Below, piece after piece: positions 573 to 16,167 of a stretch of 16,167 nucleotides of DNA. The notes below the pieces were generated by a model. It searched no databases. It saw only the letters and a program-made list of their open reading frames with translations, and had not been told where the DNA came from. The translations under genes were made by a program, and so were the position numbers. The first letter of the stretch is position 1. Every line of letters starts with the position of its first letter. This DNA comes from Stigonema ocellatum SAG 48.90 = DSM 106950. GTDB taxonomy: Bacteria; Cyanobacteriota; Cyanobacteriia; Cyanobacteriales; Nostocaceae. The stretch spans positions 1 through 16,167 of the forward strand of contig JADQBA010000180.1 in assembly GCA_016903675.1 (NCBI GenBank), read 5' to 3'.

Positions 573-1013
573 ATGGAGCCATTGACTGCTGGGGCGATCG
601 CCATTGGGACTGTAATTGCGACTAAGGCTTTAGAAAAAACGGGCGAAAAGGTAGGCGAAGCTTTATGGGATAAAACTGGTAAGTTTCTGATCACGCTCAG
701 AAAACACTCTCCCCATACCGTAGTTGCTATTGAAAAAGCCCCCTCTCAAGCACTCGATTACGGTAAAGCTGTATTAGAGGTAGAATCAGCAGCTATTGCT
801 CATCCTGAAGTAAATCAAGCTGTGCAGGAACTGGTAGCTGAAGCATCCGCTAATCCACCATTGAACTATGCTCAAGCATTGAGAGAAATAAAAGAAGCTG
901 TGGAGAAATCTCAACTACAGTATACTCCCACTTTTATTCAAAACATCCAAAAAGCTATTAATGCGGCTCAAACTCAAGCCATTGACCAACGTAATAGTAC
1001 TTTCAATATTTGA
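573..1013 (+). CDS. 146-aa helical N-terminal module, in frame with the downstream NB-ARC/TPR gene (candidate effector or adaptor domain of the STAND protein)
   Basis: ATG 573 with AAGG at 564-567. Gly/Ala-rich hydrophobic helix LTAGAIAIGTVIATKAL followed by Glu/Lys/Ala-rich helical sequence. Same reading frame as ORF 1107..3200, separated from it only by TGA 1011-1013. No family recognised by eye. Confidence 0.55.
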   Translation: MEPLTAGAIAIGTVIATKALEKTGEKVGEALWDKTGKFLITLRKHSPHTVVAIEKAPSQALDYGKAVLEVESAAIAHPEVNQAVQELVAEASANPPLNYAQALREIKEAVEKSQLQYTPTFIQNIQKAINAAQTQAIDQRNSTFNI

Positions 1014-1106: not shown

Positions 1107-3200
1107 ATGACCCTACTCCGTGATAGGTTGCAACAAAGAGGCGTTGTTGCCATCACTGCTGTTGCTGGTATGGGTGGAGTTGGTAAAACTGAATTAGCAA
1201 CGCAATACGCAAGACAGCATGAAGCTGATTACCCTGGTGGTATTTGCTGGTTATCAGCCAGAGAATCAGATTTAGCTGTGGAGATTGTGCAGTTCGCGCA
1301 GCTTCAGATGAAATTGGAAGTCCCACAACAAGATTTTCGTGGAAGGGTGTTGAGTCTGACTGAACAGGTGGAGTGGTGCTGGCAGCATTGGCAACCACCA
1401 GAGGGGTTGGCACTGATCATACTAGATGATGTCACATCTTTAGAGGGTTGTGGAGATTTTCTACCAAGGGCTAACCGATTTCGGGTGCTGATGACAACAC
1501 GGGTGCGGAATCTAGACCCTAATATTGAGGAGATTTCCTTAGATGTGCTGTCACCAGAATTCGCTTTGGAATTATTGACAAAACTCGTGGGTCAAAAGCG
1601 AGTACAAAGGGAACTGGAAGTAGCTAAACAATTGTGTGAATGGTTAGGTTATCTACCTCTGGGTTTGGAATTGGTGGGAAGGTATGTGGCGAAAAAACCT
1701 CCCAACTACAAGTTAGCCGAGATGTTAGAGCGCTTGAAAGCACAACGACTCTCAGATGAAGCGATTAATAGCGTCAGCGATTCCAAGAAAAAAAATCTCA
1801 GCACTGCACAGCGAGGAGTTTTAGCCGCATTTGAATTAAGCTGGCGCTCCCTTGATGAAATGACGCAGCGTGTTGCCGCATTATTAAGCTTGTTTGCACC
1901 AAATATCTTTGCTTGGGAATGGGTGGAGTCTGCAAGTGAATTGCTCAATTGGGTGGATGCTGATGTTCAGACAGCGAATGAGCAACTCTATGGATTTCAC
2001 TTGATTCAATGGGTAGAGGATACATCTGGTGAGTATAAAATTAGAATCCATACCCTAATTCGCGAGTTTCTGAAAGTTAAGCTAGCAGCATTAGAACAAG
2101 CTGATGTTTTGAAACGGGGTTTTGTAAAGGTAATGGTGGCGATCGCCCAAGATATTCCCTCGAACCCAACTGTGGAATTAATTACAAGAGTTAAAGATTA
2201 TATCCCACATTTAGCAGAGGTAGCACAAAATCTGATTGATGCAGTCAGTGATGAAAATTTATATTGGGTTTTTTATGGGTTAGACCGATTTTATTCTGGA
2301 CAGGGATTATATGCTCTAGCAGAACCTTGGTTAAAGCAATGTGTATCAGTAGTACAATCCCGCTTAGGAGAAGAGCATCCCTCTGTCGCCACCAGTTACA
2401 ACAACCTGGCTCTACTCTACGAATCCCAAGGAAGGTACCAAGATGCGGAACCACTGCATAAAAAAGCATTATTGCTCACGCAAAGGCTGCTGGGAGAAGA
2501 GCATCCCTCTGTCGCCACCAGTTACAACAACCTGGCAGGACTCTATCGTAACCAAGGTCAGTACAGCGAAGCGGAACCACTGTTTAAAAAAGCATTAGAA
2601 TTCAGGCAACGCCTACTGGGAGAAGAGCATCCGGATGTCGCCCAAAGTTACAACAACCTGGCAGGACTCTACGAATCCCAAGGTCGGTACAGCGAAGCGG
2701 AAACTCTGTTTAAAAAAGCATTAGAATTCAGGCAACGCCTGCTGGGAGAAGAGCATCCCTCTGTCGCCACCAGTTACAACAACCTGGCAGTACTCTACTC
2801 TGACCAAGGAAGGTACCAAGAAGCGGAACCACTGTATAAAAAAGCACTATTGCTCAGGCAAAGGCTGCTGGGAGAAGAGCATCCCTCTGTCGCCACCAGT
2901 TACAACGACCTGGCAGGACTCTATCGTAACCAAGGTCAGTACAGCGAAGCGGAACCTCTGTATAAAAAAGCATTAGAACTATTGCAACGCCTGCTGGGAG
3001 AAGAGCATCCCTCTGTCGCCACCAGTTACAACAACCTGGCTTATCTCTACGATAACCCAGGAAGGTACCAAGATGCGGAACCACTGTATAAAAAAGCATT
3101 GTCAATTGCTGAACTTAGCTTAGGGGTAGATCATCCCACAACAGCGACGATCCGTAAAAATCTCAAATCCTTACGCGATAATTATGCGGAAGCACCATAA
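1107..3200 (+). CDS. NLR-like STAND NTPase: NB-ARC domain plus C-terminal TPR array
   Basis: Walker A GMGGVGKT, Walker B LIILDDV, RVLMTTR, and GYLPLGLELVG (GLPL-type motif) match the NB-ARC/APAF-1-type core. The C-terminus carries six 42-aa TPR units plus a cap. The frame is already open and protein-like from 1014 (..NLQFTGSANFVGRSHEM..), so ATG 1107 is probably not the native N-terminus. Confidence 0.9.
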   Translation: MTLLRDRLQQRGVVAITAVAGMGGVGKTELATQYARQHEADYPGGICWLSARESDLAVEIVQFAQLQMKLEVPQQDFRGRVLSLTEQVEWCWQHWQPPEGLALIILDDVTSLEGCGDFLPRANRFRVLMTTRVRNLDPNIEEISLDVLSPEFALELLTKLVGQKRVQRELEVAKQLCEWLGYLPLGLELVGRYVAKKPPNYKLAEMLERLKAQRLSDEAINSVSDSKKKNLSTAQRGVLAAFELSWRSLDEMTQRVAALLSLFAPNIFAWEWVESASELLNWVDADVQTANEQLYGFHLIQWVEDTSGEYKIRIHTLIREFLKVKLAALEQADVLKRGFVKVMVAIAQDIPSNPTVELITRVKDYIPHLAEVAQNLIDAVSDENLYWVFYGLDRFYSGQGLYALAEPWLKQCVSVVQSRLGEEHPSVATSYNNLALLYESQGRYQDAEPLHKKALLLTQRLLGEEHPSVATSYNNLAGLYRNQGQYSEAEPLFKKALEFRQRLLGEEHPDVAQSYNNLAGLYESQGRYSEAETLFKKALEFRQRLLGEEHPSVATSYNNLAVLYSDQGRYQEAEPLYKKALLLRQRLLGEEHPSVATSYNDLAGLYRNQGQYSEAEPLYKKALELLQRLLGEEHPSVATSYNNLAYLYDNPGRYQDAEPLYKKALSIAELSLGVDHPTTATIRKNLKSLRDNYAEAP
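2364..3119 (+). repeat. Six tandem 126-nt (42-aa) TPR-coding units, near-identical at DNA level
   Basis: Units start at 2364, 2490, 2616, 2742, 2868 and 2994. Consensus LGEEHPSVATSYNNLAxLYxxQGxYxxAEPLxKKALxxxQRL. A degenerate cap follows at 3120-3197. Confidence 0.95.
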
Positions 3201-3511
3201 ACAGCGTTCTAGGGCTGGACTACAAAAAAGAGGTATTTCGTGTAATAGGTGGCGAAAAGTATTGAAACTCCGTTGCTCCCTTTTGGACAGGTTCCCAGGT
3301 GATAGCCAAGTCACAGTAAATTTAGAACAGGGGGAAATTAAAAAGTCTCCTCACTTTAAACAAGCTGGTAAATCACAACCACAGTAGCCATCCGACCAGT
3401 CAGAATCATCTTCATCACAGACACACTCATCATAGTCAACCCACTCCTCATAGGTATAGCCAGAAGGCTTGCGCTGTTGAATTTTGTGCTTTTACCCCCC
3501 GGATGACCAAA

Positions 3512-3893
3512 TTTTGAATCATACCCTGACCAAAAGTTAACGCTATTTCAAGGGTTATAGTCAAAACGGATGAGTAAGTTTTGCATCAAATCGTGACCGC
3601 GTGTTCTAAATTTGCATCATAATAGATCCTAAAGTTTTCAAAACCAAAAAGAGAAAAATTCGACGGCATAATAACCGACTTGTGATTTGAATCATAATTT
3701 GGTTCTTGGCAACTTTTGGTCACGCTATGGTTCAAATCACACGACTCATAGTGAATAAGAAGACAAAATATGGTTCAAAGTGACTAAAATATGGTTCAAT
3801 TCAGATTGAACGGGATTTTTATTCGACTGTTGTGAGGGTTATAAACTCCGTGTAGCGCTCTTGTTACGCCATTTATGTGAGGTTCAAATGAAC
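3512..3893. repeat. Cluster of TATGRTTCAAA(TCACA)-type short repeats, including a 16-bp-stem hairpin at 3681-3742
   Basis: Copies read by eye: 3512-3523 (minus orientation), 3681-3696 (minus), 3727-3742 (plus), 3770-3779 and 3791-3800 (plus, 21-nt spacing, both preceded by AAAAT), and 3881-3889 (plus). 3681-3696 and 3727-3742 are inverted copies with one T/C difference. Confidence 0.7.
3680..3701. repeat. Left arm of a perfect 22-bp inverted repeat (TTGTGATTTGAATCATAATTTG)
   Basis: Exact reverse complement of 5775-5796. Both arms also have GGTCACG/CGTGACC nearby on the side of the longer arm extension (3718-3724, and 5761-5767 which lies just outside the right arm). Confidence 0.9.
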
Positions 3894-4022
3894 AGTAGCA
3901 CAGGCGTTTTGATCGGCACTGAGCGCGTTCGCCAGTCCGGGACGGCTTATAGCCACGGAATAACACAATTATGTATTATAAATGTATTACATAAATTCAT
4001 AAAGTTTAACTTACAAAAATGA
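3888..4022 (+). CDS. Possible 44-codon upstream ORF translationally coupled to the kinase-like gene
   Basis: GAGG at 3879-3882 lies 5 nt before ATG 3888. Its TGA (4020-4022) overlaps the ATG (4019-4021) of the next gene in an ATGA arrangement. The downstream gene has no obvious SD of its own. The second half is AT-rich and could equally be non-coding. Confidence 0.3.
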   Translation: MNSSTGVLIGTERVRQSGTAYSHGITQLCIINVLHKFIKFNLQK

Positions 4023-5104
4023 ATGGTGAAGTCATTACTGATATTCGTCAAATAACTCTTGACTGGCTCAATTCAGTGCTTATTGGTAGTGCCGCACTGG
4101 TTACAGGCAAAGTCCTTGATTTTGCTATGGAAGTCAAAGGAAGTGAAAATGCCCGGATTGTAAAAATCCGGCCTCAATATAAACAAGGAGCAACTGGTAC
4201 AACGCCTGCAATGCTGTTGCTGAAAATGTGTTTAGGCAATAATACTACTTTTGGAGATTCAGAAGTCAATTACTATACGCGGGATTACATTGATCTAATA
4301 AATCGACCGCTACCGATAAGCTACCATGCACGATATGCACAGAACCCTCCTCGCTATCACATTCTCATGGAAGACCTATCTGCAAGCCATAGTCCTAGTT
4401 GGAAAATTAAGCCAACACTTGCATACGGATGTGCAGTTGCTCAAGCCCTAGCTACATTGCACGCACATTGGTGGGGAAGCGAAAAGTTAGAGGCCATTGG
4501 TGCTAATATTCCCAGCCACAGTGAAATTGAGCGATACGTGGCTCATGCCCAACCAGGATTACTACCAATGTTGTCGGAGGTTAGGAGTGAAATTGATAGA
4601 GAGTGGCAGTCAGTACTTATGGATGTGTTTCAGTACCATCCAGGCAAGATGATTGAGCGCACTTCCAACTCATCTGGCTTCACATTGATTCACGGTGATG
4701 TTAACCCTGGTAATATTCTTTATCCATTAAATGGAGAGGGAAAAATTTATCTGATTGACCGCCAGCCGTTTGATTGGTCACTAACTACTTGGCTGGGAGT
4801 CAGCGATATTGCGTATATGATGGTGCATTGGTGGGAACCCAATTGGCGACGGCAATTAGAAATTCCTATCTTACGCGAATATCATACAAATCTTTTAAGC
4901 AATGGTGTGTCTGGTTACGATTGGGAGCAACTGATAAACGACTATAAACTGGCTGCTGTTCAAAGTCTTTACGTTGCTTGTCAGTGGTGTGTCTCTCCCC
5001 AAGAGCGTCGCCAGATGAAATGGGTATGGCTTCCGCAACTGCTCAAGTCGATGACAGCTTTCTTTGACTTGCGCTGTTCTGAGTTATGGACATTGTGGAA
5101 ATAG
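4019..5104 (+). CDS. Kinase-fold phosphotransferase (APH / choline-kinase / EcKL-like family)
   Basis: Catalytic-loop motif LIHGDVNPGNILY and downstream YLIDRQPFDW (metal-binding Asp), as in the aminoglycoside/ecdysteroid-kinase-like phosphotransferase fold. 361 aa, a typical size. Confidence 0.7.
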   Translation: MNGEVITDIRQITLDWLNSVLIGSAALVTGKVLDFAMEVKGSENARIVKIRPQYKQGATGTTPAMLLLKMCLGNNTTFGDSEVNYYTRDYIDLINRPLPISYHARYAQNPPRYHILMEDLSASHSPSWKIKPTLAYGCAVAQALATLHAHWWGSEKLEAIGANIPSHSEIERYVAHAQPGLLPMLSEVRSEIDREWQSVLMDVFQYHPGKMIERTSNSSGFTLIHGDVNPGNILYPLNGEGKIYLIDRQPFDWSLTTWLGVSDIAYMMVHWWEPNWRRQLEIPILREYHTNLLSNGVSGYDWEQLINDYKLAAVQSLYVACQWCVSPQERRQMKWVWLPQLLKSMTAFFDLRCSELWTLWK

Positions 5105-6481: not shown

Positions 6482-6519
6482 ATAGAAGTACAACTGTGTA
6501 GGTGTGAGAGTTTCTTTAT

Positions 6520-7146
6520 ATGAAAGTAATAGCAATCGTGTCGAGAAAAGGTGGGAGCGGGAAGTCAACTATTGCAATTCACTTAGCTGTTGCTGCGTCA
6601 ATAGCAGGTAAGGAAACAGCAATTATTGACTTAGACCCGCAGTCATCAGCAGCAAAGTGGTCAGATTCTCGCTCGGCAGAATTCCCCGTTGTGGTTTCTG
6701 CTCAGGCTTCCCGACTGGAGAAGGTATTAGAAGCAGCAGAAAAAGAGGGGGCAGATTTGGTTTTTATTGATACCTCCCCACACACAGAAACAGCGGCTCT
6801 TGCTGCTATTCGTGCAGCTGATTTAATCTTGGTTCCTTGCCGCCCGTCGATTGTGGATTTACGCGCCATTGATGACACTATCGATTTGATTAAGCTAGCG
6901 AAAAAAACATCTGTTGCCGCCGCAGTTCTCAATGGTGTTCCACCCCAAGGGTCACTGGGAGATGAAGCCGTTGAAGCGATCGCTGGTTATGGTATAGCTG
7001 TTGCCCCAGTCAAAATTGGGCATAGATCCGCATTCGTTCGCTCGCTCACAGATGGGCTAACCGCTATTGAATACGAGCCAAAAGGTAAAGCAGCAAAAGA
7101 AATTAATGCTTTGTACAAGTGGACATGTACACAAGTTAAAGTGTAA
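6520..7146 (+). CDS. parA: ParA/Soj-family partition ATPase (small, type-Ib-like, no N-terminal HTH)
   Basis: Deviant Walker A SRKGGSGKST at the N-terminus, IIDLDPQ, and Walker B-like LVFIDTSP. 208 aa. Followed by a small RHH gene. Confidence 0.9.
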   Translation: MKVIAIVSRKGGSGKSTIAIHLAVAASIAGKETAIIDLDPQSSAAKWSDSRSAEFPVVVSAQASRLEKVLEAAEKEGADLVFIDTSPHTETAALAAIRAADLILVPCRPSIVDLRAIDDTIDLIKLAKKTSVAAAVLNGVPPQGSLGDEAVEAIAGYGIAVAPVKIGHRSAFVRSLTDGLTAIEYEPKGKAAKEINALYKWTCTQVKV

Positions 7147-7164
7147 AAAAGTGGAGGAGTGGAC

Positions 7165-7446
7165 ATGAACCCAAAGAAGACGACGAAACTAGGCAATGCT
7201 TTACATAAGGCTAAAGAGTCCCCAGTAGCCGAGGTTGCAGCACAAGAAGAACAGCCGCAAGAAAACCAAAAATATCCGTTACCACCAAGTCGCCAAGGAA
7301 CCCGAACAATAGCTGGTCATTTTGATCCAGCGGTAGCTATTCAGTTGAAAAGGATGGCAGCAGAGAAAGAAACTACGGTACAAGCTTTATTGACAGAAGC
7401 GTTAAACCTCTTGTTTGAAAAACATGGTGAGAAACCAATAGCTTAA
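7165..7446 (+). CDS. Ribbon-helix-helix (CopG/ParG-like) centromere-binding partner of ParA
   Basis: GGAGGAG at 7153-7159 lies 5 nt before ATG 7165 (the ORF track starts at GTG 7159). Disordered Lys/Glu/Pro-rich N-terminus. The C-terminal TIAGHFDPAVAIQLKRMAAEKETTVQALLTEALNLLFEKHG fits a strand-helix-helix pattern. Position immediately 3' of parA. Confidence 0.7.
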   Translation: MNPKKTTKLGNALHKAKESPVAEVAAQEEQPQENQKYPLPPSRQGTRTIAGHFDPAVAIQLKRMAAEKETTVQALLTEALNLLFEKHGEKPIA

Positions 7447-7743
7447 TTCAAGGTTAGAGCCGATGGGTACGCTCATCACCTATTTCGGGTGGCGATCGCA
7501 ACGAAAAATTGGTTTTTATTGAGAATTAAGACCCAATCCCACAAAATCGCATTGCTCCCCTCTAATGAAGACGTGGCGAGGTGTGTTATCAATTTCAACC
7601 TTGCCAGTTTCGGCTAATACTGTACCTAAAGGAGTACTGATAGCCTACGGGTCTTTTCCTGCTACGGTGAGATTTTTATAAGAAACTGCCTATTGTAAAG
7701 TACTTCAGAACACCGACACGCTTTACAACATTTAAAGGATTTT

Positions 7744-7980
7744 ATGGTTAATTACAACAATGCGTTGAAGAATTTTGAGCATAAGGGTTCTAGCGTGAAA
7801 CCGAGCAGAATGAATACTTTTCTAGAGTCTAATGGTGTTGAGGAATTGGATGATGAAACTTGTAGTGTAGTATGTGGGAGTGGGATTGTTTTAAAGAACG
7901 CCCCATTAGATGCGGTACTTACACTTGTGCAACAGTTTACTGATATAGTAAGCAGAAAGAGCCACGACTATGACAAATGA
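7744..7980 (+). CDS. Double-glycine-type leader peptide precursor (peptide A)
   Basis: AAAGGA lies 5 nt before the ATG. The leader KPSRMNTFLESNGVEELDDETCSVVCGSG is homologous to the leaders of peptides B and C. The 31-aa core is unrelated to the others. Confidence 0.55.
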   Translation: MVNYNNALKNFEHKGSSVKPSRMNTFLESNGVEELDDETCSVVCGSGIVLKNAPLDAVLTLVQQFTDIVSRKSHDYDK

Positions 7981-8033
7981 GTCAGAGCCGTGCCTGGTAT
8001 CCAATCGCTCGAATCAATAGAAACCTGATTCTA

Positions 8034-8102
8034 TGGTGGGAAACAGTGCTGCTACAAATCTTTACATGTTTCCAGAACGCTTTTATGTTACCGTTTCCAT
8101 AG
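8034..8102. repeat. Conserved about 69-nt block 3' of peptide gene B
   Basis: Aligns with 8427-8494 at roughly 80% identity with one gap (TGGTGGGAAACAGTGCTGCTACA...CCAGAACGCTTTTATGTTA...CATAG). Confidence 0.8.
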
Positions 8103-8182
8103 ATTTATTCAGGAAACATATGGCACCGTAAGCCAGATGAAGATGAAGCCACCGCATCTCACAATCAGCCAAGCCCATCAAG

Positions 8183-8392
8183 CTAGCCAAGCCCTTTCTT
8201 CTTCTCATCAAGGCATATGTAAACCGCTTCGTCTGTATCATATGGTGAGAATTTGTATGGTTGGAAATCTGGAGTAATAAACCCGCAACCAGCCACTGCA
8301 ACACAAGCCGCATCGTCTAGTTCCTCAACGCTTGTAGACTCTAGAAAGTTATTCAGTTTTTCCGGTTTGTTCTTCAGGTTATTGTTAGACAT
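8183..8392 (-). CDS. Double-glycine-type leader peptide precursor (peptide B)
   Basis: GGAGAA lies 8 nt before the ATG. Leader MSNNNLKNKPEKLNNFLESTSVEELDDAACVAVAGCG, then a 32-aa core FITPDFQPYKFSPYDTDEAVYICLDEKKKGLG. Confidence 0.65.
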   Translation of the reverse strand: MSNNNLKNKPEKLNNFLESTSVEELDDAACVAVAGCGFITPDFQPYKFSPYDTDEAVYICLDEKKKGLG

Positions 8393-8426
8393 GCTAAATT
8401 CTCCGTCTTCTTTATAGTTGATTTTG

Positions 8427-8494
8427 TGGTGGAAAGCAGTGCTGTTACATTTCTTAAATGTAGCCAGAACGCTTATATGTTAAGGTTTTCATAG
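8427..8494. repeat. Conserved about 69-nt block at the 3' end of peptide gene C
   Basis: Second copy of the 8034-8102 block. Here it overlaps the stop codon of peptide C. Confidence 0.8.
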
Positions 8495-8683
8495 AATTGG
8501 CTGATTTAAATTAGGAAAGAGAGTCGCGGATAATTTAAGTTTAATTGATTGAATTTCTGCCGATAACGAAAGCCCTGAACCATTCACTGCAACACAAGCC
8601 GCATCGTCCAGTTCCTCAATGCTACTCGATTCTAGAAAATTATTCAGTTTGTCCGGTTTGTTCTTCAGGTTATTGTTAGTCAT
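8489..8683 (-). CDS. Double-glycine-type leader peptide precursor (peptide C)
   Basis: Leader MTNNNLKNKPDKLNNFLESSSIEELDDAACVAVNGSG is about 88% identical at nt level to the peptide B leader, with four codons differing only synonymously. The 27-aa core LSLSAEIQSIKLKLSATLFPNLNQPIL is unrelated to B. Confidence 0.65.
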   Translation of the reverse strand: MTNNNLKNKPDKLNNFLESSSIEELDDAACVAVNGSGLSLSAEIQSIKLKLSATLFPNLNQPIL

Positions 8684-9219
8684 GACGCTCTTTAAATCTT
8701 TGTAAAAATGATTACATGAAACAGCCTACCTCATGTATTTATGATAAAAATCACACCTTAGCAAGAAGACACACATAGTCTAGTAGCAAGCTTTTAGGTA
8801 GATAAGCAACTAACCATGCTCGGAAGGTTAGCAACCATTGGTTAGAACTTTTAAAACATTCTCTTACATTTGCAAGTCACTCATTTATTATTCTAATACT
8901 TATTTGTAACAACCTATGGTACACATAAATACTTCAAAATAGTATTTATCAAAAAAATCATCAATTGTTGCAAAATAAAGTCATTGACTTTTTGAACAAA
9001 TACTGAACTTTACATTTATTTTTTGATTTTCCATAAGCCACGGCAATATGTATACTTCAACACAGCTTGATGGAGTAAGTTTTATTTGTTATTCTTCTTT
9101 TATAGAAATAGTGTAATTGATGGTTACTTGATGCCTGTATAGGCATTCCATCAAAGACTCACATTGTTTCAAACACAGGTGACGTTCTTATCACTTACTA
9201 AGTTTAAAAAAAGAAAACC

Positions 9220-10659
9220 ATGAAAAAGCTCAGTTCATTTGTTCTGGCAGCACTTTTATTTGTCAGTACATTCTTTTCTATGACTCTTAATGCCTTTGCT
9301 GAAACAACCTCTGCCATTGGCATTGTTAACACCGTATTGACCGACAGCAAGATCGCATCTGGAAGAACTCAGCCAGGTACAACTAACTGGCAGCGATATA
9401 ACGACTATAGTGTTTATGTAGATGTTGACACTAGTGCTGCCCAATTTACTCAAACACCAATATATGTAACTTCACTTTTAGGCACCATTAACCATTGGAA
9501 ACTCACTGGAATTAGCGCTGTTTATAGTGCGACGGCAAAAGGCTTTCGTATATATCTCACAACGGAGAATGACACCGAAAAACTGACTCCAGAGATTGCC
9601 AATAGTCGTAATTGGCATGTCAATTGGATTGGCATTGAGCCTTTCACAGCAATAGGTTCCAACGCTAACGCTCAGACACCTTCAACAATAAAACCAACTC
9701 CCATTGATAATAAGAATGGTACTATCTCCACGGAACCAGGTAAAACCACAAAAGTTCAGGTGACTGTCGATCTTCCAGCCGATATTGGCTATAACAATAG
9801 TTTTGGAATCTTCAAAATCAACGATGATGGCAGCGTAGCAGGAGTCAAACCAGGCGCTGCTAATTATGCTGAAACTGTGGTCAAAAATCGTATTCCTTTA
9901 GCAGATGTTGATAAAGGTTCATATAAAAAAGGACAGACCTTTAAATACGATTTACCGGGTGGGTCAAAATATGGCGTATTCTTGATTGCCAACGGAACTC
10001 CAGACCAGTTCTTACAGAAGAACCCCACAAATAAAGGGTCTGAACCACCCTTGGCTTACTTCTTCGATACAGCAGCCAACCCCGACCAAAAATCTCACGT
10101 TAAGGTGTCATCAGATAAACCCAATCAATACGGTTTTGAGGATATGTACGGGGGAGGAGATCAAGACTTTGATGACCTGATTGTCAAACTAGAAACTTTG
10201 TCAGTTGAACCAATTGCTCAGACACCACTTCCTACACCAGGGAAATACTACTATCTCGTCAACAAAAATAGCGAAAAAGCATTAGCTATAACTGGTGGTA
10301 TTACTGCTGATGGAAGCGGGGCTCTCCAATGGTATAACCAGAAAGCAGATAATTTCAAATGGCTGTTAGAAGATGCAGGTAGTGGCTACTTCTACCTTAT
10401 AATTAAACACAGCGGTAAAGCATTAGCTACGACTGGTGGTAACACCGATGGAGGCTCTGTCGTACAATCGACTAACGAGAAATTAGATAATTTCAAATGG
10501 CTGTTAAAAGATGCTGGTAATGGCTATTTCTACCTCATCAGCAAACCAAACGACAAAGTTTTAAATGTAGAGGATTCTAGCACTGCTGCTGGAGCGGCTA
10601 TCACTCAGCGGGACAACAAAGGCACTGATAATCAACAATGGAGATTTGAACCTGTGTAG
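9220..10659 (+). CDS. Secreted multi-domain lectin-like protein (N-terminal H-type-lectin-like region, DUF4114-like middle, C-terminal ricin-B-type beta-trefoil)
   Basis: Signal peptide MKKLSSFVLAALLFVSTFFSMTLNAFA/ET. GFEDMYGGGDQDFDDLIVKL is a DUF4114-type signature. The C-terminus has a three-fold internal repeat with W motifs (LQW..DNFKWLLEDAGSGYFYLI / DNFKWLLKDAGNGYFYLI / DNQQWRFEPV), as in a (QxW)3 ricin-type trefoil. The H-type lectin call for residues about 50-140 (..TPIYVTSL..AKGFRIYL..NWIGIE) is tentative. Confidence 0.85.
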   Translation: MKKLSSFVLAALLFVSTFFSMTLNAFAETTSAIGIVNTVLTDSKIASGRTQPGTTNWQRYNDYSVYVDVDTSAAQFTQTPIYVTSLLGTINHWKLTGISAVYSATAKGFRIYLTTENDTEKLTPEIANSRNWHVNWIGIEPFTAIGSNANAQTPSTIKPTPIDNKNGTISTEPGKTTKVQVTVDLPADIGYNNSFGIFKINDDGSVAGVKPGAANYAETVVKNRIPLADVDKGSYKKGQTFKYDLPGGSKYGVFLIANGTPDQFLQKNPTNKGSEPPLAYFFDTAANPDQKSHVKVSSDKPNQYGFEDMYGGGDQDFDDLIVKLETLSVEPIAQTPLPTPGKYYYLVNKNSEKALAITGGITADGSGALQWYNQKADNFKWLLEDAGSGYFYLIIKHSGKALATTGGNTDGGSVVQSTNEKLDNFKWLLKDAGNGYFYLISKPNDKVLNVEDSSTAAGAAITQRDNKGTDNQQWRFEPV

Positions 10660-10806: not shown

Positions 10807-10862
10807 AAGTTTTTATATAAATGTCGTTATAGTCCCATTTTCTAATATTTTATTAATCGAGT

Positions 10863-10913
10863 TAATCGCTTGGAACAGTTTCTGTACCAAGCATAGGCTC
10901 TACGTCAGGAAAG
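10863..10913. repeat. Imperfect 51-nt direct repeat, copy 1 (3' of peptide gene D)
   Basis: Ungapped alignment with 11353-11403 at an exact 490-nt offset, 39/51 identical (TAATCGCT..TTTCT.TA.CA..CATAG...CTACGTCAG.AAAG). Confidence 0.7.
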
Positions 10914-10969: not shown

Positions 10970-11152
10970 CTAATCTGCTACGTGTAGGTCTGTAGACCCT
11001 GACGTTAGTGTAACATTAACCTCCAAAGTTATTAAATTTAAATCATAACTATAATTAAGACCGTTATAACCACCATTTACAACTACCGTTAAGTCGTCGT
11101 TTAAATCCTCAAACAAATCTGTAGATTTCAATTCAACTTTCTTGGTATCCAT
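10970..11152 (-). CDS. Possible double-glycine leader peptide precursor (peptide D)
   Basis: From the internal ATG 11152: MDTKKVELKSTDLFEDLNDDLTVVVNGG / YNGLNYSYDLNLITLEVNVTLTSGSTDLHVAD. The acidic L-x-x-L leader ends in VVNGG. No clear SD for either the 11152 or the 11182 start. Confidence 0.4.
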   Translation of the reverse strand: MDTKKVELKSTDLFEDLNDDLTVVVNGGYNGLNYSYDLNLITLEVNVTLTSGSTDLHVAD

Positions 11153-11352
11153 GATTATCAGAAGTATCTGTAAAGAAAACATTACGCATTCGCGTACTGA
11201 TAGTAGTTTATGTATTTGTTTCTAAATAGCAATCGACCTACAGCAAGTTGACATCTGTCAATAATCATGGCAATAGGCTGTCTTATCTCGCTAGAATAAA
11301 ATTCCTTGCAATCTCTAGTGTTGTTCACTCAGAGTATCTGAGGAGTTTTAAC

Positions 11353-11403
11353 TAATCGCTCGAAACCCTTTCTTTATCAGCCATAGAGCCTACGTCAGCA
11401 AAG
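11353..11403. repeat. Imperfect 51-nt direct repeat, copy 2 (5' of peptide gene D)
   Basis: See 10863-10913. Confidence 0.7.
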
Positions 11404-11712: not shown

Positions 11713-12648
11713 CTAGTATTTGGTCAGTTTATCTAAAGCAAGTTGTGCTATTTCTTCGGCTCGGGATGATGTAACTTTTTGATAACGCAATGTAGTCTGT
11801 ATGTTCTCATGACCCATCAATGCACGAAGCGTCTCAATCCCCATCAATCCGACGCGCTCAGTTGCGAAAGTATGCCGCAGATCGTGAATCCGAATTCCCA
11901 CGAGTACTGGACTCTGAGCAATTAAATCACTCCAACACTTATGAAATCGGCGGTAACTTAAGCGAGTCACCTCTCCCGTCAATGGTTGCTCTGCCGTAAA
12001 AAGCGCACTGCAAAGGGGATGCCTCTCGTATCGGAGATATTTTTCAAGAGCGATCGCCGCATCGTCGCTGTAAAAACACCACCGCTGTTTATTTCCCTTG
12101 CCAACCACCTGAAATTTCCGAGAACCTCGGTCAACACTCTCCAAATCCAACGCTAATAGCTCACTAATTCTTGCTCCGGTACGGTGAAGCAACCTTACCA
12201 AAGCATTCATTCTCAAATCCATCGCCACTAGTTTATACAAAATCGTAAGCTGTTGATTAGTAAGGTAGCGGATAACTTCATCAGTTCCGTATTCTCCTTT
12301 TTCTGGATCAGGCTTGCGTCTTTTTAGACCAGCTATCGGATTATTACTTAAATACCCTTGCTCTACGGCAAAATTAAACAGAGCCTGAATGATAGCCTGG
12401 TGACGATGATGGGTGGTAAGACGAATATGTGTCAAACGATTCAAGTAATCACAAAGTTCCTGTCGGCTGATGATTTTCACTGACCACCATCCATATTCTT
12501 TTAACAAGGGCATCAAGGTAAATTCATAAGAATCCCGTGTATTCTTACTCAAGCCTGGACGGTCTAAAAATTCTCTGGCTAATCTAGCTAAAGTAATTGA
12601 CAAGTGACTACACATCTGAGTTGACTTGTTTCTTAACTCGCTTGTCAA
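11713..12648 (-). CDS. Tyrosine site-specific recombinase (XerC/D-phage integrase fold; candidate TnpI/TnpS-type cointegrate resolvase)
   Basis: Full catalytic set visible: HRTGARISELLAL (Arg), GKGNKQR (Lys), HDLRHTFAT (His-x-x-Arg), LMGHENIQTTLRYQKV (His, Tyr). The ORF-track start is TTG 12648. ATG 12615 (MCSHLSITLARLAREFL..) is an alternative start. Confidence 0.9.
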   Translation of the reverse strand: MTSELRNKSTQMCSHLSITLARLAREFLDRPGLSKNTRDSYEFTLMPLLKEYGWWSVKIISRQELCDYLNRLTHIRLTTHHRHQAIIQALFNFAVEQGYLSNNPIAGLKRRKPDPEKGEYGTDEVIRYLTNQQLTILYKLVAMDLRMNALVRLLHRTGARISELLALDLESVDRGSRKFQVVGKGNKQRWCFYSDDAAIALEKYLRYERHPLCSALFTAEQPLTGEVTRLSYRRFHKCWSDLIAQSPVLVGIRIHDLRHTFATERVGLMGIETLRALMGHENIQTTLRYQKVTSSRAEEIAQLALDKLTKY

Positions 12649-12687: not shown

Positions 12688-13140
12688 ATGTACTTTTTAG
12701 CAGAGCAGCAAGCCCCAAGACTAGGAGAAACCTTGGACAACTATATCCAGCGATTGCGATCCGGACTTCATTTGAGCCAACAGCAGTTAGCAACAAGAGC
12801 GGGAATTCACATTCAGAGTATGGGTAAGATTGAGCGCGGTCAAACCCAAAGACTTAACCAAAAAACTAAAACTGGTCTAGCGTCAGCACTGTCCATACCT
12901 ATTGAGTATCTGGATGCAGTGCTTTGTGGTCAACCAGTATCGACAGTGGAAAAGAAGCAATTTTGTCCGAAATGCTGGATTCCTGGTACTAATCCAGATC
13001 CGGTGTGGCTCATGCAACGCGCCAAGTATTGTTTAACTTGTGGTACTACTTTACGTACTCGCTGTCGTAACTGCTCTGAAGCAATCACTGACTTTAAACA
13101 TCGATTCTGTCCCAGCTGCGGCACTGCTTATTCCGAGTAA
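12688..13140 (+). CDS. XRE/Cro-type HTH regulator fused to a C-terminal double zinc ribbon
   Basis: HTH segment LSQQQLATRAGIHIQSMGKIERGQ. The C-terminus has four CxxC pairs (CPKC, CLTC, CRNC, CPSC). Divergent from the recombinase gene and co-directional with tnpA. Confidence 0.75.
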   Translation: MYFLAEQQAPRLGETLDNYIQRLRSGLHLSQQQLATRAGIHIQSMGKIERGQTQRLNQKTKTGLASALSIPIEYLDAVLCGQPVSTVEKKQFCPKCWIPGTNPDPVWLMQRAKYCLTCGTTLRTRCRNCSEAITDFKHRFCPSCGTAYSE

Positions 13141-13203: not shown

Positions 13204-16167
13204 GTGACATCTATAGAACGCACGGCTTATCCCAGATTCAAACGCTATTTCACGACCAAAGAACTCGGAGAAATTTACACTCCGACAAAATCTGAAATTG
13301 CGTTTGCTTATAGCACTACCAACGGTCAGAGTAACATTTTAAACTTGGTAGTTTTCTTAAAGACATTCCAGCGTCTTGGTTATTTTCCCAAGATTGTTGA
13401 AGTCCCTAATTCAATATTAAATCATGTAAGAGGCTGTTTAAAACTACCGACTGAAATAGGTTTGGTTTATGAAAACTCTAAAACAATGTATCGGCATCGA
13501 ACGGCTATCCGTGAGTATCTTAAAATTAATCCTTTTGACAAAAATGCACGGAACTTTTGCGTTCAGTCTGTCTACGAATCTGCGCAGGTGATGGATAATC
13601 CGGCTGATTTAATCAATGTAGCCATTGGGGAATTAGTTAAGCAACGGTATGAACTACCTGGATTTAACACTTTAGACCGATTGGTAGGTCGGGTGAGGAC
13701 TTTGGTTAACCAAAAGCTATTTTCTTTGGTAATTAGCCGACTTGAGGATGATTATATACAGAGGTTGAATGACTTATTGTCTAGTCATTCTGTTGAGCGA
13801 CGCAGTCCCTATAATGACTTGAAACAGCTACCAAAACGTCCAACCCGTGACCATCTTAACGATTTAATTGTTCATCTAACTTGGCTTGATTCACTTGGAG
13901 AGGTCAAAGCATTTCTCAACAATATTACAGTAGCAAAAATCCAACATTTCGCGGCTGAAGCTAGAGTATTAGAAGAAGAGTGAAGTTAAGGAGATTAATC
14001 AGCCAAAACGTATCACACTCCTGTTATCTTTAATTTACGCGGCTCAAGTGCAAACCAGAGATAACTTAGTATCTATGTTTCTCACTCATATTGCGGACTA
14101 TTCATAACAGTGCTAAAGAGGAATTAGAGGAACTTCGACAGAAAAACCAAGAAACTATCGAAAAATTGGTGGGTGTTTTTAGTAATGTCCTACAGGTATT
14201 CGTCGAGCCGCCACCAGATACGGAAGTGATTCAGCTTTGTTATCAGGTGTTTGAACCTGTTGGGGGAGCACAGCAACTATTAAATGAATGTGAGGGGGTT
14301 AACGCTTATAAGGGGAATAACTATCTCCCTTTAATATGGCGATTTTACAAGAGTCATCGCAGTGCATTTTTCCGATTACTTAATGCGCTAAAGTTTGAGT
14401 CTACCAGTCAAGAGCAAACTATTATCGAGGCTGTCAAGTTTTTACAATTAAATGCAAATCGCCGTACTGAGTTCTTTCCAGATACGTTAGATTTATCTTT
14501 TGCTTCCCCACAGTGGCTGAAACTATTGAAGGTTCAACAAGGAGAAAAAAACAAAATTGTCCGTCGTCCTAAGCGAAGTTTGTGTATTCTCCTATCTAGA
14601 AGCAGAACTTAGGTCAGCGGACATTTGTGTCATTGGAAGCGAAGACTATGCCGACTACCGAGAGCAGTTAGCTAGTTGGTCAGAATGTCAACCATTGGTA
14701 GCTAAATATTGTGAGAATTTAGGTTTTCCTGACACAGCTTCTGGGTTTGTAGCACAATTAAAATCTTGGTTGATAGATACTGCTACCTCGGTAGATGCAG
14801 GTTATTCAGATAATCGACAGATTGTAATTAACGCTTCGGGAGAGCCAGTTTTAAAAAGACCATCTCGGATTGAATTAAGCCCTTCTGCTCAAATTCTTTC
14901 ACAAGCAGTTGAAGAAAGATTTCCCGAACGTAATCTTGTCGATATCCTGAGAAATGTAGACTACTGGACTAATTTTACGCGGCACTTTGGGCCGATGAGT
15001 GGTTCTGATCCAAAACTAGAACATGCTACTGAACGTTATCTTCTAACTACCTTTACTTATGGATGTAATTTGGGAGCAACTCAGGCAGCACGTCATATGC
15101 GGGGAGTGGTAACTGCCAAAGAGTTATCGTTTGTGAATCGGCGTCATGTAAGTGGAGATAAACTTCAGAAGGCACTAACTGATATAATTAACCGCTACAA
15201 TGTTTTGAATATACCAAAAATTTGGGGCGACGGTACAACAGCAGCAGCAGATGGGACAAAGTATGAACTTTACGAAGAAAATCTCCTGTCTGAATATCAC
15301 ATTCGCTATGGTGGTTATGGTGGAATTGCTTACCACCATGTAGCTGATAGTTATGTGGCATTATTTAGCCACTTTATTCCTTGTGGAACCTGGGAAGCAG
15401 TTTACATTATTGAAGGTTTATTGAAAAATTTCTCAGATATTCAGCCTGATACTATTTATGCTGATACCCAAGGTCAATCAACACCTGTATTTGCACTATC
15501 ATACCTGTTGGGGATTAAGTTAATGCCCCGCATTCGCAACTGGAAAGATTTGAATTTTTATCGTCCTGATAAGAATACTGTTTATAAACATATTGATTCT
15601 CTTTTTAAGGATACTATTGACTGGGGAATAATTGAAACACACTGGCAAGATTTATTACAGGTTGTACTTTCAATTCAAACCGGGAAAATTTCTTCAGCTT
15701 TATTGTTGAGAAAGTTGGGAAACTACAGTCGGAAGAACAGACTTTATCAAGCATTCCAGGAATTGGGACGAGTCGTCAGGACAGTATTTTTGTTGTTGTA
15801 TATTTTCGATATACAAATGCGCTCCTTAATTACTGCTGCAACCAACAAGGTAGAATCGTATCACGGCTTTTCCAAATGGTTTGGCTTTGGAGGGTTTGGA
15901 ATTATTGCTCATAATGACCCCATAGAACAAGAAAAGATGATCAAGTATAACGATTTGATTGCGAATGCTGTTATCTTCCACAACGTGGTGGATTTGACTG
16001 ATATTTTGCGTGATTTGAAACGTGATGGCTATTTAATTCTTCGTGAAGATGTAGCCGCTTTGAGTCCATACATGACTAGTCATATTAAACGATTTGGTGA
16101 TTATTTGATTGATTTGGATACTGTGCCGCAGACATTAGATGAGATTGGGGCTTTTGTTTTAATTTAG
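13204..16167 (+). pseudogene. tnpA: Tn3-family DDE transposase, disrupted by three +1 frame changes
   Basis: GTG 13204 gives MTSIERTAYPRF (DUF4158-type TnpA N-terminus). DDE region AADGTKY / YADTQGQS / NKVESYHGF. The span of 988 codons matches full-length TnpA. The protein-like reading moves through frames 1>2>0>1 at about 13973-13981, 14090-14094 and 14568-14574. Confidence 0.9.

What the first reader, a model, noticed from the sequence alone, without database searches (positions are those of the whole stretch)
7744..8683. Cluster of short genes encoding related double-glycine-type leaders with unrelated cores and an unusual Cys-containing G-x-G junction
Peptides A (plus strand), B and C (minus strand) share the leader KP..(L/M)N.FLES...(V/I)EELDD(A/E).C.V..G.G. 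B and C are about 88% identical in DNA over the 111-nt leader, with four purely synonymous codon differences, which supports coding. Similarity stops abruptly after the G-x-G, and the cores (31, 32 and 27 aa) are unrelated. Conserved leader with hypervariable core is the signature of RiPP or bacteriocin precursor families processed by C39-peptidase ABC exporters, which are widespread in cyanobacteria. Several things are unusual here. There is a conserved Cys inside the leader. The junction is AGCG/NGSG/CGSG rather than a plain GG. The cores are neither Cys-rich nor Gly-rich. No exporter, peptidase or modifying enzyme lies anywhere in the window. The genes sit on a partition-equipped replicon next to a secreted lectin.
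Basis: partly seen in the sequence, partly recalled or inferred. Interest (0 to 1): 0.7.

Follow-up and report, generated by a model that had tools for sequence, protein, structure and literature searches.

The report
Orphan double-glycine peptide genes, swappable cores
Four short genes on a Stigonema plasmid-like contig belong to a small unannotated family of peptides with a conserved export-type (double-glycine) leader and unrelated tails; they are a new family of a well-known kind, and the only unusual point is that each tail sits as a replaceable cassette between near-identical DNA flanks.

Summary
A (7744-7980 +), B (8183-8392 -) and C (8489-8683 -) share a 36-46 aa leader, and similarity stops at the G-x-G. 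The window is a Stigonema ocellatum SAG 48.90 contig.

I found 17 members in total, all from Stigonema, Nostoc or Aetokthonos. One is a fourth, divergent gene in the window, D (10970-11152 -). No Pfam, NCBIfam, PLSDB, phage or IMG/VR match exists.

- **Leader:** Gly at -2, Val/Ile at -4 and Leu at -12 are invariant. Thirteen members end in a plain GG. The window's G-S and G-C junctions and the Cys at -7 are local variants (-7 is C, S, L or T across the family).
- **Coding:** leader pN/pS is 0.43. Cores stay open for 26-62 codons, against an off-frame median of about 11.
- **Cores:** unrelated to each other, neutral to anionic, and almost free of Cys.
- **Flanks:** many genes also carry a conserved upstream element and an ~85-nt downstream element I call D2. 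Near-identical flanks (96-98%) can enclose unalignable cores.
- **Context:** none of 13 loci has a C39 exporter, HlyD or a modifying enzyme.

Best reading: stand-alone double-glycine secreted peptides on mobile replicons, processed in trans by a host exporter. This is a new member of a known kind.

The parts
7540..7743 (+). Conserved upstream element (promoter/5'UTR region) of gene A
   Evidence: It is an inverted repeat with the region upstream of C (7623-7685 vs 8738-8800). It aligns with the upstream regions of 6 homologues. A nhmmer model finds it at 10 family genes. An AGG/GAGG Shine-Dalgarno-like motif lies 6-9 nt before the ATG.
7744..7980 (+). Gene A, 78 aa: leader 7744-7881 (46 aa, ends ...VVCG-S), core 7882-7977 (32 aa)
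   Evidence: (leader HMM E 2e-24). The long N-terminus is conserved in P0003, P0007, P0009 and P0012.
8019..8106 (-). D2 copy 1: conserved ~85-nt non-coding element downstream of gene B
   Evidence: Direct repeat with 8414-8499. nhmmer E 2e-24. The same element follows 7 homologous genes in other contigs. No Rfam match and no structure or covariation.
8183..8392 (-). Gene B, 69 aa: leader 8285-8392 (36 aa, ends ...AVAG-C), core 8186-8284 (33 aa)
   Evidence: B lacks the upstream element and is preceded directly by D2 copy 2, 22 nt before its ATG, with a GGAG motif.
8414..8499 (-). D2 copy 2: overlaps the stop codon of gene C and lies just upstream of gene B
   Evidence: The same order (gene, D2, next leader gene) occurs in L130.
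8489..8683 (-). Gene C, 64 aa: leader 8576-8683 (36 aa, ends ...AVNG-S), core 8492-8575 (28 aa)
8684..8888 (-). Conserved upstream element of gene C
   Evidence: nhmmer E 1.5e-38.
10970..11152 (-). Gene D, 60 aa: divergent fourth double-glycine peptide (MDTKKVELKSTDLFEDLNDDLTVVVNGG | 32-aa core)
   Evidence: Weak leader-HMM hit (E 0.04-0.07). The translation shows F-15, L-12, V-4 and GG. It has no homologue in the protein database and no upstream or D2 element. ~60-nt direct repeats flank it.

Best explanation
A, B, C and probably D are stand-alone genes for small secreted peptides with a double-glycine-type N-terminal leader.

Inferred mechanism: a peptidase-containing ABC exporter (C39/PCAT with its HlyD/OMF partners), encoded elsewhere in the host genome, binds the amphipathic helix formed by V/I-15, L-12, C/S/L-7 and V-4. 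It cuts after G(-2)-G/S/C(-1) and exports the 26-62 aa core, most likely unmodified.

Shown: each gene is a self-contained module made of a conserved upstream element, a conserved leader, a hypervariable core and, at 9 of the family genes whose loci I held, a conserved ~85-nt 3' element (D2) that lies in the 3'UTR where a terminator can be seen. The core is replaced wholesale between flanks that stay 94-98% identical. The modules ride on plasmid, phage-plasmid-like and occasionally chromosomal DNA of Stigonema, Nostoc and Aetokthonos.

Inferred: this pattern fits an extracellular product under diversifying selection. The cores are anionic or neutral, Cys-free and often beta-strand-like with a hydrophobic C-terminal residue. 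They therefore look more like EbfG-type matrix, surface or signalling peptides, or unconventional bacteriocins, than like cationic pore-formers or lanthipeptides.
For: Family is real and coding:
- Profile searches find 17 members.
- Four different Leu codons occur at -12. Leader pN/pS is 0.43.
- Cores stay open 26-62 codons against an off-frame median of about 11 (Mann-Whitney p 8e-6; binomial 2e-8).
- Shine-Dalgarno-like motifs precede the ATGs.

Leader anatomy:
- G-2 17/17, V/I-4 17/17, L-12 17/17, V/I/F/L/C at -15, net charge 0 to -6.
[quoted passage not shown] LahT150 also cleaved after a GS sequence.
- AlphaFold places a helix over D-A-A-C-V-A-V, at low confidence.

Boundary and cores:
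- L003 vs L134: leader 98% nt, core 26%, D2 onward 96%. L006 vs L135: 89%, 39%, 94%.
- Cores are pairwise unrelated: 8 of 120 pairs at p<0.05 against 6 expected.

Trans processing is plausible:
- Heterocystous cyanobacteria carry 4-14 C39-transporter clusters each, and precursors distant from clusters are documented (PMC3140520).
- Secretion of non-antibiotic double-glycine proteins by a C39 peptidase-transporter was shown for EbfG1-4/PteB (PMC4997328; PMC9981879).
Against: - No C39/PCAT, HlyD or OMF gene lies in the window or within up to 10 kb in 12 other loci. The link to an exporter rests on leader anatomy alone.
- I could not check that the Stigonema genome has a PCAT.
- Glu at -8, part of the classical L-12...E-8-L-7 consensus, is Ala in most members. 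Position -7 is polar (Ser or Thr) in 9 members.
- A G-C cleavage site (gene B) is not among the documented variants.
- The leader is conserved well beyond the ~15 residues a C39 domain needs (KLNNFLES and LKNFGQS blocks). That hints at a second, unknown binding partner.
- The cores lack the cationic or Gly-rich character of typical class II bacteriocins.
- No expression or peptide data exist.
Confidence: 0.57

Rival explanations
1. RiPP precursors. The extended N-terminal half of the leader (LKNFGQ..., KLNNFLES) is a recognition sequence for a modifying enzyme encoded elsewhere. The cores are modified before double-glycine cleavage and export.
For: - The leader is conserved over 36-50 aa, more than a C39 domain requires.
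- Cassette-like hypervariable cores in near-identical genes are a hallmark of RiPP families such as cyanobactin patE and prochlorosins (established knowledge).
- The NB-ARC/TPR protein at 1107-3200 resembles the TPR proteins of FxSxx-COOH and HaaT cyclophane-RiPP systems. It scores 273.9 bits against a cut-off of 300, so it is below threshold.
Against: - No modifying enzyme lies in any of 13 loci.
- There is 1 Cys in 563 core residues, which excludes lanthipeptides, sactipeptides, ranthipeptides and thiazole types.
- No motif is shared between cores that an enzyme could target.
- The NB-ARC/TPR gene co-occurs in only 2 loci and belongs to a very broad STAND class.
Confidence: 0.2
2. Intracellular small proteins of mobile elements, for example regulators or anti-defence factors. 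The conserved acidic N-terminal helix would be the functional module and the C-terminal tail largely unconstrained. The terminal GG would be coincidental.
For: - The genes sit on plasmid and phage-plasmid-like contigs. These carry ParA/RHH, integrase and Tn3 in the window, ResT/TelK telomere resolvase in L001 and L005, and terminase in L003.
- They lie among STAND, TIR, WGR and CHAT genes.
- No exporter is linked in any locus.
Against: - An unconstrained tail would not stay open for 26 or more codons in 16 of 17 genes.
- Nor would it be replaced precisely at the GG codon while the flanks stay 96-98% identical.
- The invariant G-2, V-4 and L-12 spacing is specific to C39 substrates.
- AlphaFold finds no folded domain (mean pLDDT 60).
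Confidence: 0.12
3. An antisense-controlled toxic peptide module, type I toxin-antitoxin-like. D2 would be the promoter of a cis-antisense RNA that runs back across the peptide gene and holds its expression in check.
For: - On the strand opposite to the genes, D2 carries TTTAC(A/T)-N17-(T/C)ATGTT in 6 of the first 7 copies examined. The scan flags 8061-8089 at 9/12.
- D2 has no RNA structure or coding signal, as expected for a DNA-level element.
- Convergent toxin and antisense layout is typical of type I systems (established knowledge).
Against: - Promoter-like hits are no more frequent than in shuffles (7 found against 5.8 expected).
- The cores are not hydrophobic membrane peptides, except P0011.
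- The conserved part is an acidic leader rather than a toxin.
- Six family genes whose loci I held lack D2 (A, P0003, P0006, P0010, P0012, P0013).
- In L006 and L135 an intrinsic terminator follows D2 in the sense direction, so D2 reads as 3'UTR.
Confidence: 0.06
4. Non-coding repeat or annotation artefact: the 'leader' is a DNA repeat, and the ORFs are accidental.
For: - The leader, upstream element and D2 are all conserved at DNA level.
- Two copies are broken by stop codons: P0005 by TGA at -1, and the second leader in L130 by TAG.
Against: - Substitutions are biased to synonymous sites: pS 0.48 against pN 0.21, with four different Leu codons at -12.
- ORF length is maintained in frame only.
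- The two broken copies look like recent pseudogenes. In P0005 the frame stays open 25 codons past the TGA.
Confidence: 0.02

Closest known systems
Cyanobacterial double-glycine-type bacteriocin/RiPP precursors (Wang, Fewer & Sivonen 2011, PMC3140520; NHLP and Nif11-type leaders of Haft et al. 2010)
   Same: - Short precursors (28-164 aa in that survey) with a conserved acidic leader ending in GG or GA.
- Very little conservation of the core.
- Often unannotated, sometimes in tandem, sometimes on plasmids, and sometimes far from the transporter cluster.
- Most abundant in heterocystous filamentous strains.
   Different: - The leader here matches none of the curated leader models (NHLP, Nif11, bacteriocin_sig and others), even at E up to 10.
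- No transporter or modifying gene is linked in 13 loci, whereas that survey defined precursors by adjacency to such clusters.
- The cores are not rich in Gly, Cys, Ser or Thr.
- A conserved non-coding 3' element accompanies the gene.
EbfG1-4 / PteB of Synechococcus elongatus PCC 7942 (PMC4997328, PMC9981879)
   Same: - Small cyanobacterial proteins with a GG or GA secretion motif.
- They are not antibiotics. A C39 peptidase-transporter secretes them, and they act outside the cell as matrix or amyloid components.
- The cores are neither cationic nor Cys-rich.
   Different: - ebfG1-4 form one operon next to pteB. The genes here are orphan modules on mobile DNA.
- No sequence similarity between the two.
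- The amyloid, surface or signalling role here is only a conjecture from composition.
Hypervariable-cassette RiPP precursor families (cyanobactin patE variants, prochlorosin procA; established knowledge, and PMC10783134 for prochlorosins)
   Same: Near-identical genes that differ only in the core, with sharp boundaries. Many divergent cores share one leader within a narrow taxon.
   Different: - In those families a dedicated enzyme (PatA/D/G, ProcM) is known, and the cores share modifiable residues.
- Here no enzyme is known.
- The 3' boundary is a non-coding element after the stop codon rather than a coding recognition sequence.
Class II (unmodified) bacteriocins and peptide pheromones of Gram-positive bacteria (ComC, lactococcin A and others) with LSxxELxxIxGG leaders
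   Same: A leader of 15-30 or more aa with G-2, a small residue at -1, and hydrophobic residues at -4, -7, -12 and -15. A PCAT cleaves and exports them. They are frequently plasmid-borne.
   Different: - Those genes are normally next to immunity and transporter genes. No immunity-like membrane protein is adjacent here.
- Their cores are usually cationic and amphiphilic.
- Glu at -8 is absent here.

Membership tests
Double-glycine (C39/PCAT-processed) leader peptides | N-terminal leader ending in Gly(-2) followed by Gly/Ala/Ser(-1), at the conserved/variable boundary | tested here: met
   G at -2 in 17/17. At -1: G in 13, S in 2 (A, C), C in 1 (B) and TGA in 1 pseudogene. DNA identity stops at these codons. 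G-C is not a documented variant.
Double-glycine (C39/PCAT-processed) leader peptides | Hydrophobic residues at -4, -7 and -12 (and -15) on one face of a helix | tested here: met
   V/I at -4 in 17/17, L at -12 in 17/17, and V/I/F/L/C at -15. Position -7 is L in 3, C in 5 (A, B, C, P0005, P0010) and S/T in 9, so it is only partly hydrophobic. The helix prediction is low-confidence.
Double-glycine (C39/PCAT-processed) leader peptides | Glu at -8 (classical Leu-12...Glu-8-Leu-7 consensus) | tested here: not met
   Position -8 is Ala in 13 of 17, otherwise T, L, D or V. The acidic residues sit at -10, -11, -13 and -14 instead. This consensus came from ComA and is not universal.
Double-glycine (C39/PCAT-processed) leader peptides | Genetic linkage to, or demonstrated processing by, a C39-peptidase ABC transporter | tested here: not met
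   Linkage is absent from the window and from 12 other loci (up to +/-10 kb; several contigs are short). Processing itself cannot be tested with these tools.
NHLP / Nif11-type / other curated leader families | Match to the curated HMM (NCBIfam/TIGRFAM or Pfam) | tested here: not met
   No hit for A, B or C at E up to 10 in NCBIfam or Pfam.
RiPP precursor (any class) | Co-occurring modifying enzyme, and modifiable residues or a motif shared by the cores | tested here: not met
   No enzyme in 13 loci. There is 1 Cys in 563 core residues. Cores are pairwise unrelated. A distant enzyme cannot be excluded.
Diversity-generating retroelement target | A reverse transcriptase and template repeat nearby. 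Variable region differs only at template adenines, without indels. | tested here: not met
   No RT domain in any locus. Cores differ in length and are unalignable (26-39% identity).
Type I toxin-antitoxin | Small hydrophobic membrane toxin plus an overlapping antisense RNA | tested here: inconclusive
   Only 1 of 16 cores is strongly hydrophobic (P0011, GRAVY 1.47). The antisense promoter-like motif in D2 is a consensus match only. No transcript data.

The most novel reading that the evidence does not exclude
The unit is a mobile, self-contained 'peptide cassette holder'. A fixed promoter plus export leader on the 5' side and a fixed ~85-nt non-coding anchor (D2) on the 3' side serve as recombination handles. 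Through them, phage-plasmids and plasmids of Stigonematalean cyanobacteria exchange or capture entirely new secreted-peptide cores. D2 may also drive a cis-antisense RNA. This would be a dedicated diversification architecture for secreted peptides that needs no linked enzyme or exporter, used for strain discrimination or for competition between mobile elements.
Probability: 0.15. Interest if true: 0.65.

Novelty: new member of a known kind. Interest (0 to 1): 0.38.

Why it matters
- **A new leader family.** If the reading holds, heterocystous cyanobacteria gain a further unannotated double-glycine leader family. It has 17 members, none named in any library. It also shows that such peptides travel as orphan modules on plasmids and phage-plasmid-like elements and rely on host exporters.
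- **A clean case of core replacement.** Cores are swapped between flanks that remain 96-98% identical, and the 3' boundary is a non-coding element. This could help in studying how leader/core peptide families diversify.
- **Practical use.** The leader profile and the D2 element can serve as search handles for more such genes. The G-S and G-C junctions are simple test substrates for C39 specificity.

Tried and rejected
- **Curated libraries.** Pfam and NCBIfam scans of A, B and C at E up to 10 gave nothing. A PDB profile search gave only a chance hit.
- **D2 as an RNA.** No Rfam hit. Single-sequence folds have z-scores of -0.5 to -1.6. RNAalifold on either strand gave energies near zero and essentially no compensatory pairs. 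Rejected.
- **D2 as coding.** A 12-codon sense mini-ORF and an antisense ORF (VVENSAVTNLYM...) were read by eye in 7-9 copies. Frameshifts, missing starts and early stops break both. Rejected.
- **D2 as a general repeat.** A scan of 185,579 genomes with its core found only a Stigonema MAG and Aetokthonos, each next to a leader gene. IMG/VR had none.
- **More members.** IMG/VR and two metagenome scans gave no new member. tblastn against PLSDB plasmids and INPHARED phages gave no match. megablast of 6500-9300 against plasmids gave none.
- **Gene D.** It has no homologue.
- **Syntenic peptide genes on related plasmids.** I looked next to the related parA-RHH of Nostoc sp. UHCC 0302 plasmid unnamed7 and found none.
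- **Diversity-generating retroelement, and shufflon-type inversion between the inverted A and B/C leaders.** Considered and rejected. There is no RT, the cores differ by indels, and every gene has its own start and leader.
- **PatS-like RGSGR signal.** Only G-S-G is shared. Rejected.
- **AlphaFold of C with the family alignment.** Mean pLDDT 60, not informative beyond helix propensity.
Full report
**1. What is in the window**

The 16,167-base window is a contig of the Stigonema ocellatum SAG 48.90 (DSM 106950) metagenome-assembled genome. The three peptides are GenBank hypothetical proteins DSM106950_39370, 39375 and 39380 (genome paper PMC8001431).

The large ORFs are as follows:
- a 146-aa ORF (573-1013) followed by an NB-ARC/TPR STAND protein (1107-3200)
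- an APH/EcKL-like kinase (4019-5104)
- a ParA partition ATPase (6520-7146; NF041546, 197 bits, above its cut-off) with a ribbon-helix-helix partner (7159-7446)
- a ricin-type lectin with DUF4114 (9220-10659) that has a clear Sec signal peptide
- a tyrosine integrase (11713-12648, minus strand)
- an HTH/zinc-ribbon protein (12688-13140)
- a Tn3-family transposase split over 13204-16167

**2.

The three ORFs are A (7744-7980 +, 78 aa), B (8183-8392 -, 69 aa) and C (8489-8683 -, 64 aa). Their N-terminal 36-46 residues align with 22 invariant columns.

B and C are 88% identical over 115 nt. They differ in 10 codons, of which 4 are purely synonymous. Similarity ends at the G-x-G.

Neither Pfam nor NCBIfam recognises them, even at E = 10.

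**3. The family**

A profile of the leaders was run against 5.8 billion clustered proteins and then, with full HMMER, against 1.84 billion representatives. It retrieved 13 further proteins (P0003, P0005-P0016).

All named sources are heterocystous cyanobacteria: Stigonema ocellatum, an uncultured Stigonema MAG, Nostoc indistinguendum CM1-VF10 and Aetokthonos hydrillicola CCALA 1050.

A six-frame HMM scan of the window also picked up a fourth, divergent gene. This is D (10970-11152 -): MDTKKVELKSTDLFEDLNDDLTVVVNGG followed by a 32-aa core. D has no database homologue.

Nothing related exists in PLSDB plasmids, INPHARED phages or IMG/VR. Two metagenome scans added nothing. The family is therefore real, small and taxonomically narrow.

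**4. Leader anatomy**

I number residues back from the conserved/variable boundary.

| Position | Residue across the 17 members |
|---|---|
| -1 | Gly in 13, Ser in A and C, Cys in B, TGA stop in the Aetokthonos copy |
| -2 | Gly in 17/17 |
| -4 | Val or Ile in 17/17 |
| -7 | Cys in 5, Ser in 7, Leu in 3, Thr in 2 |
| -8 | mostly Ala |
| -12 | Leu in 17/17 |
| -15 | V, I, F, L or C |

Leaders are acidic, with net charge 0 to -6.

[quoted passage not shown] LahT150 also cut after a GS sequence (PMC6363468).

The leader Cys occupies the -7 pocket position, where relatives have Ser, Leu or Thr. G-S is a documented junction. G-C in gene B is not documented, and neither is the lack of Glu at -8.

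The leader is conserved for 36-50 residues (LKNFGQ..., KLNNFLES). That is more than a C39 domain needs, which leaves room for a second, unknown partner.

**5. The genes are coding and the cores are kept open**

Position -12 uses four different Leu codons: TTG, CTA, CTG and CTT. Over positions -16 to -2, pS is 0.48 and pN is 0.21, a ratio of 0.43.

After the cleavage site, the in-frame distance to the first stop is 26-62 codons in 12 of 13 genes for which I held DNA. In the two other frames the median is about 11 codons. The Mann-Whitney p is 8e-6. The binomial tail is 2e-8 given a per-codon stop probability of 0.063.

The Aetokthonos copy has TGA exactly at -1 but stays open for 25 more codons. 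It reads as a recent pseudogene. A second leader in L130 is cut by TAG.

**6. The cores**

The cores are pairwise unrelated: 8 of 120 pairs reach p<0.05 against shuffles, where 6 are expected.

Their net charge is -6 to +1. There is 1 Cys in 563 residues. Only one core (P0011) is strongly hydrophobic. Ten of 16 end in F, I, L, V or W (binomial p 0.016). Several show alternating beta-strand-like patterns, which I read by eye.

This excludes lanthipeptide-, sactipeptide- and thiazole-type chemistry. It also argues against classical cationic class II bacteriocins.

**7. New: each gene is a module with conserved non-coding flanks, and the core behaves as a cassette**

A ~200-nt upstream element precedes 10 family genes, including A (7540-7743) and C (8684-8888).

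An ~85-nt element, which I call D2, has this consensus in gene sense: TATGGAAACAGTAACATATAAGCGTCnTGGAAAAGAGTAAAGATTTGTnACAGCACTGCTTTCCACCACAGAATCAGCT. It starts between 8 nt before and 84 nt after the stop codon. It is present at 9 genes: B (8019-8106), C (8414-8499), and P0005, P0007, P0008, P0009, P0014, P0015 and P0016.

In the window and in L130 the order is gene, D2, next gene.

Findings on D2:
- A scan of 185,579 genomes with the D2 core found it only in a Stigonema MAG and in Aetokthonos, each time after a leader gene.
- It has no Rfam match, no stable or covarying structure on either strand and no consistent reading frame.
- In L006 and L135 a canonical intrinsic terminator follows about 100 nt downstream, so D2 lies in the 3'UTR there. 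In L001, which lacks D2, a terminator hairpin sits directly after the stop.
- On the opposite strand D2 carries TTTAC(A/T)-N17-(T/C)ATGTT in most copies. This is only a consensus match, and such matches are not enriched in the region.
- Its function remains unexplained.

The most telling result comes from two pairs of contigs from different samples.

| Contig pair | Leader DNA identity | Core identity | D2 and 125 nt beyond |
|---|---|---|---|
| L003 (P0009) vs L134 (P0007) | 98% (144/147) | 26%, different lengths | 96% |
| L006 (P0014) vs L135 (P0015) | 89% | 39% | 94% |

In the first pair, identity stops at the Gly-Gly codons and resumes at the first base of D2. Point mutation cannot do this. 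The cores have been replaced as units between fixed flanks.

A diversity-generating retroelement is excluded, because there is no reverse transcriptase and the cores differ by indels. Recombination through the flanks is the simplest reading, but it is an inference.

**8. Genomic context of homologues**

I examined thirteen loci: the window, L001-L006 and L130-L135. None has a C39 ABC transporter, HlyD, LanM, radical SAM enzyme, cyclase or protease within the DNA held. That DNA reached up to +/-10 kb, and several contigs are only 2-4 kb.

The contexts are mostly mobile or defence-like:
- ResT/TelK telomere resolvase in L001 and L005, with the peptide gene about 0.8 kb from the contig end
- a terminase large subunit, an IS200-type transposase and a TIR protein in L003
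- NB-ARC, WGR and a DDE transposase in L004
- CHAT and ISAzo13 fragments in L006

L002, L131 and L132 look chromosomal.

No neighbouring gene is shared across loci, apart from the 146-aa ORF plus NB-ARC pair in the window and L004.

Two facts soften this. Heterocystous cyanobacteria carry 4-14 C39-transporter clusters per genome, and precursors remote from their clusters are documented (PMC3140520). A host exporter acting in trans is therefore plausible. I could not verify one in this genome.

**9. Mechanism proposed**

Shown:
- a coding gene family with a double-glycine-type leader
- cores kept open and replaced as cassettes
- conserved 5' and 3' non-coding flanks
- carriage on mobile replicons
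- no linked machinery

Inferred:
- A host PCAT binds the leader helix, cleaves after G-G, G-S or G-C, and exports the core.
- The core acts outside the cell and is under diversifying selection.

The closest functional precedent is EbfG1-4 of Synechococcus elongatus. These are small GG/GA-motif proteins secreted by the C39 peptidase-transporter PteB. They act as biofilm matrix and amyloid components rather than as antibiotics (PMC4997328; PMC9981879).

My confidence in the export reading as a whole is about 0.55-0.6. A further 0.2 goes to the variant in which an unlinked enzyme modifies the cores first.

**10. Rivals**

- **Intracellular mobile-element proteins with a functional N-terminal helix (about 0.12).** This does not explain why the tails stay open or why replacement is precise at GG.
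- **An antisense-controlled toxic peptide with D2 as the antisense promoter (about 0.06).** This rests on a consensus match only, and the cores are not membrane peptides.
- **A non-coding repeat (about 0.02).** The substitution pattern and ORF maintenance contradict it.

**11. Novelty and score**

This is a previously unannotated leader family within a well-described kind. Double-glycine precursors with hypervariable cores are widespread in cyanobacteria (PMC3140520).

A specialist would not be surprised by the genes themselves.

Three things are mildly new:
- the orphan, self-contained module on plasmid and phage-plasmid DNA
- the conserved non-coding 3' element
- the very clean cassette replacement

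Interest is 0.38. The most novel reading not excluded is a dedicated cassette-holder architecture for diversifying secreted peptides on mobile elements. I give it a probability of about 0.15, with interest of about 0.65 if true.

Noticed in passing
window 3485-3899 (and L001 1262-1620): A ~400-nt intergenic stretch between the NB-ARC/TPR gene and the kinase-like gene is 85-89% identical in DNA to a stretch just downstream of the peptide gene in L001. No ORF is conserved. It holds repeated TTTGAACC(A/T) motifs, which may be iterons or centromere-like sites of the replicon.
   Followed up: partly
window 573-1013 and 1107-3200; L004 6199-6639 and 4603-6066: A 146-aa ORF with no Pfam family, followed by an NB-ARC STAND NTPase, recurs as a pair in the Nostoc indistinguendum locus (146-aa ORF 67% identical). 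The window NB-ARC/TPR protein scores 273.9 bits against NCBIfam FxSxx_TPR (cut-off 300) and 99.9 bits against the HaaT cyclophane-RiPP TPR protein. It is probably a generic STAND regulator or defence pair.
   Followed up: partly
L001 5621-6676 and L005 1348-3249; L003 6789-8258: Two contigs carrying family members encode a ResT/TelK-type telomere resolvase, and the peptide gene lies about 0.8 kb from the contig end. L003 encodes a terminase large subunit and shares a 122-130 aa protein with L001. This suggests linear phage-plasmid-like replicons in Stigonema that carry the peptide module near a terminus.
   Followed up: no
L002 10001-10180 (= L009 5309-5490, Aetokthonos hydrillicola CCALA 1050 chromosome): This family copy has an in-frame TGA exactly at leader position -1, then 25 more open codons (LGGSEETTTPFLRQHHMYGTAKVIR), and keeps its D2 element. 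It is most likely a recent pseudogene. Recoding was not examined.
   Followed up: partly
window 10855-10912 and 11340-11400 (minus strand): ~60-nt direct repeats (CTTTsCTGACGTAGrsyCTATG...AGCGATTA) flank gene D about 450 nt apart. Seen by eye only.
   Followed up: no
L006 715-1196 (and L005 7-282): A 179-nt tandem repeat of 2.7 copies (81% matches) lies upstream of the peptide module in the Stigonema MAG contig. Related sequence sits at the very end of L005, so these may be terminal or sub-telomeric repeats.
   Followed up: no
window 7744-7812: GenBank annotates gene A as 56 aa starting at the internal Met (MNTFLES...). Homologues conserve the extra N-terminal 22 residues, so the deposited annotation is probably truncated.
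   Followed up: yes
window 13204-13983, 14091-14612, 14557-16167: The Tn3-family transposase is split into three ORFs: a DUF4158 N-terminal part, a middle fragment and the DDE domain, which runs off the window end. It is therefore probably a pseudogene or carries sequencing frameshifts.
   Followed up: no
P0006 (L131 10001-10300): One family member has a repetitive core: four copies of PFPITGGVGSNP. Each repeat contains an internal GG, which is reminiscent of multi-core precursors.
   Followed up: no
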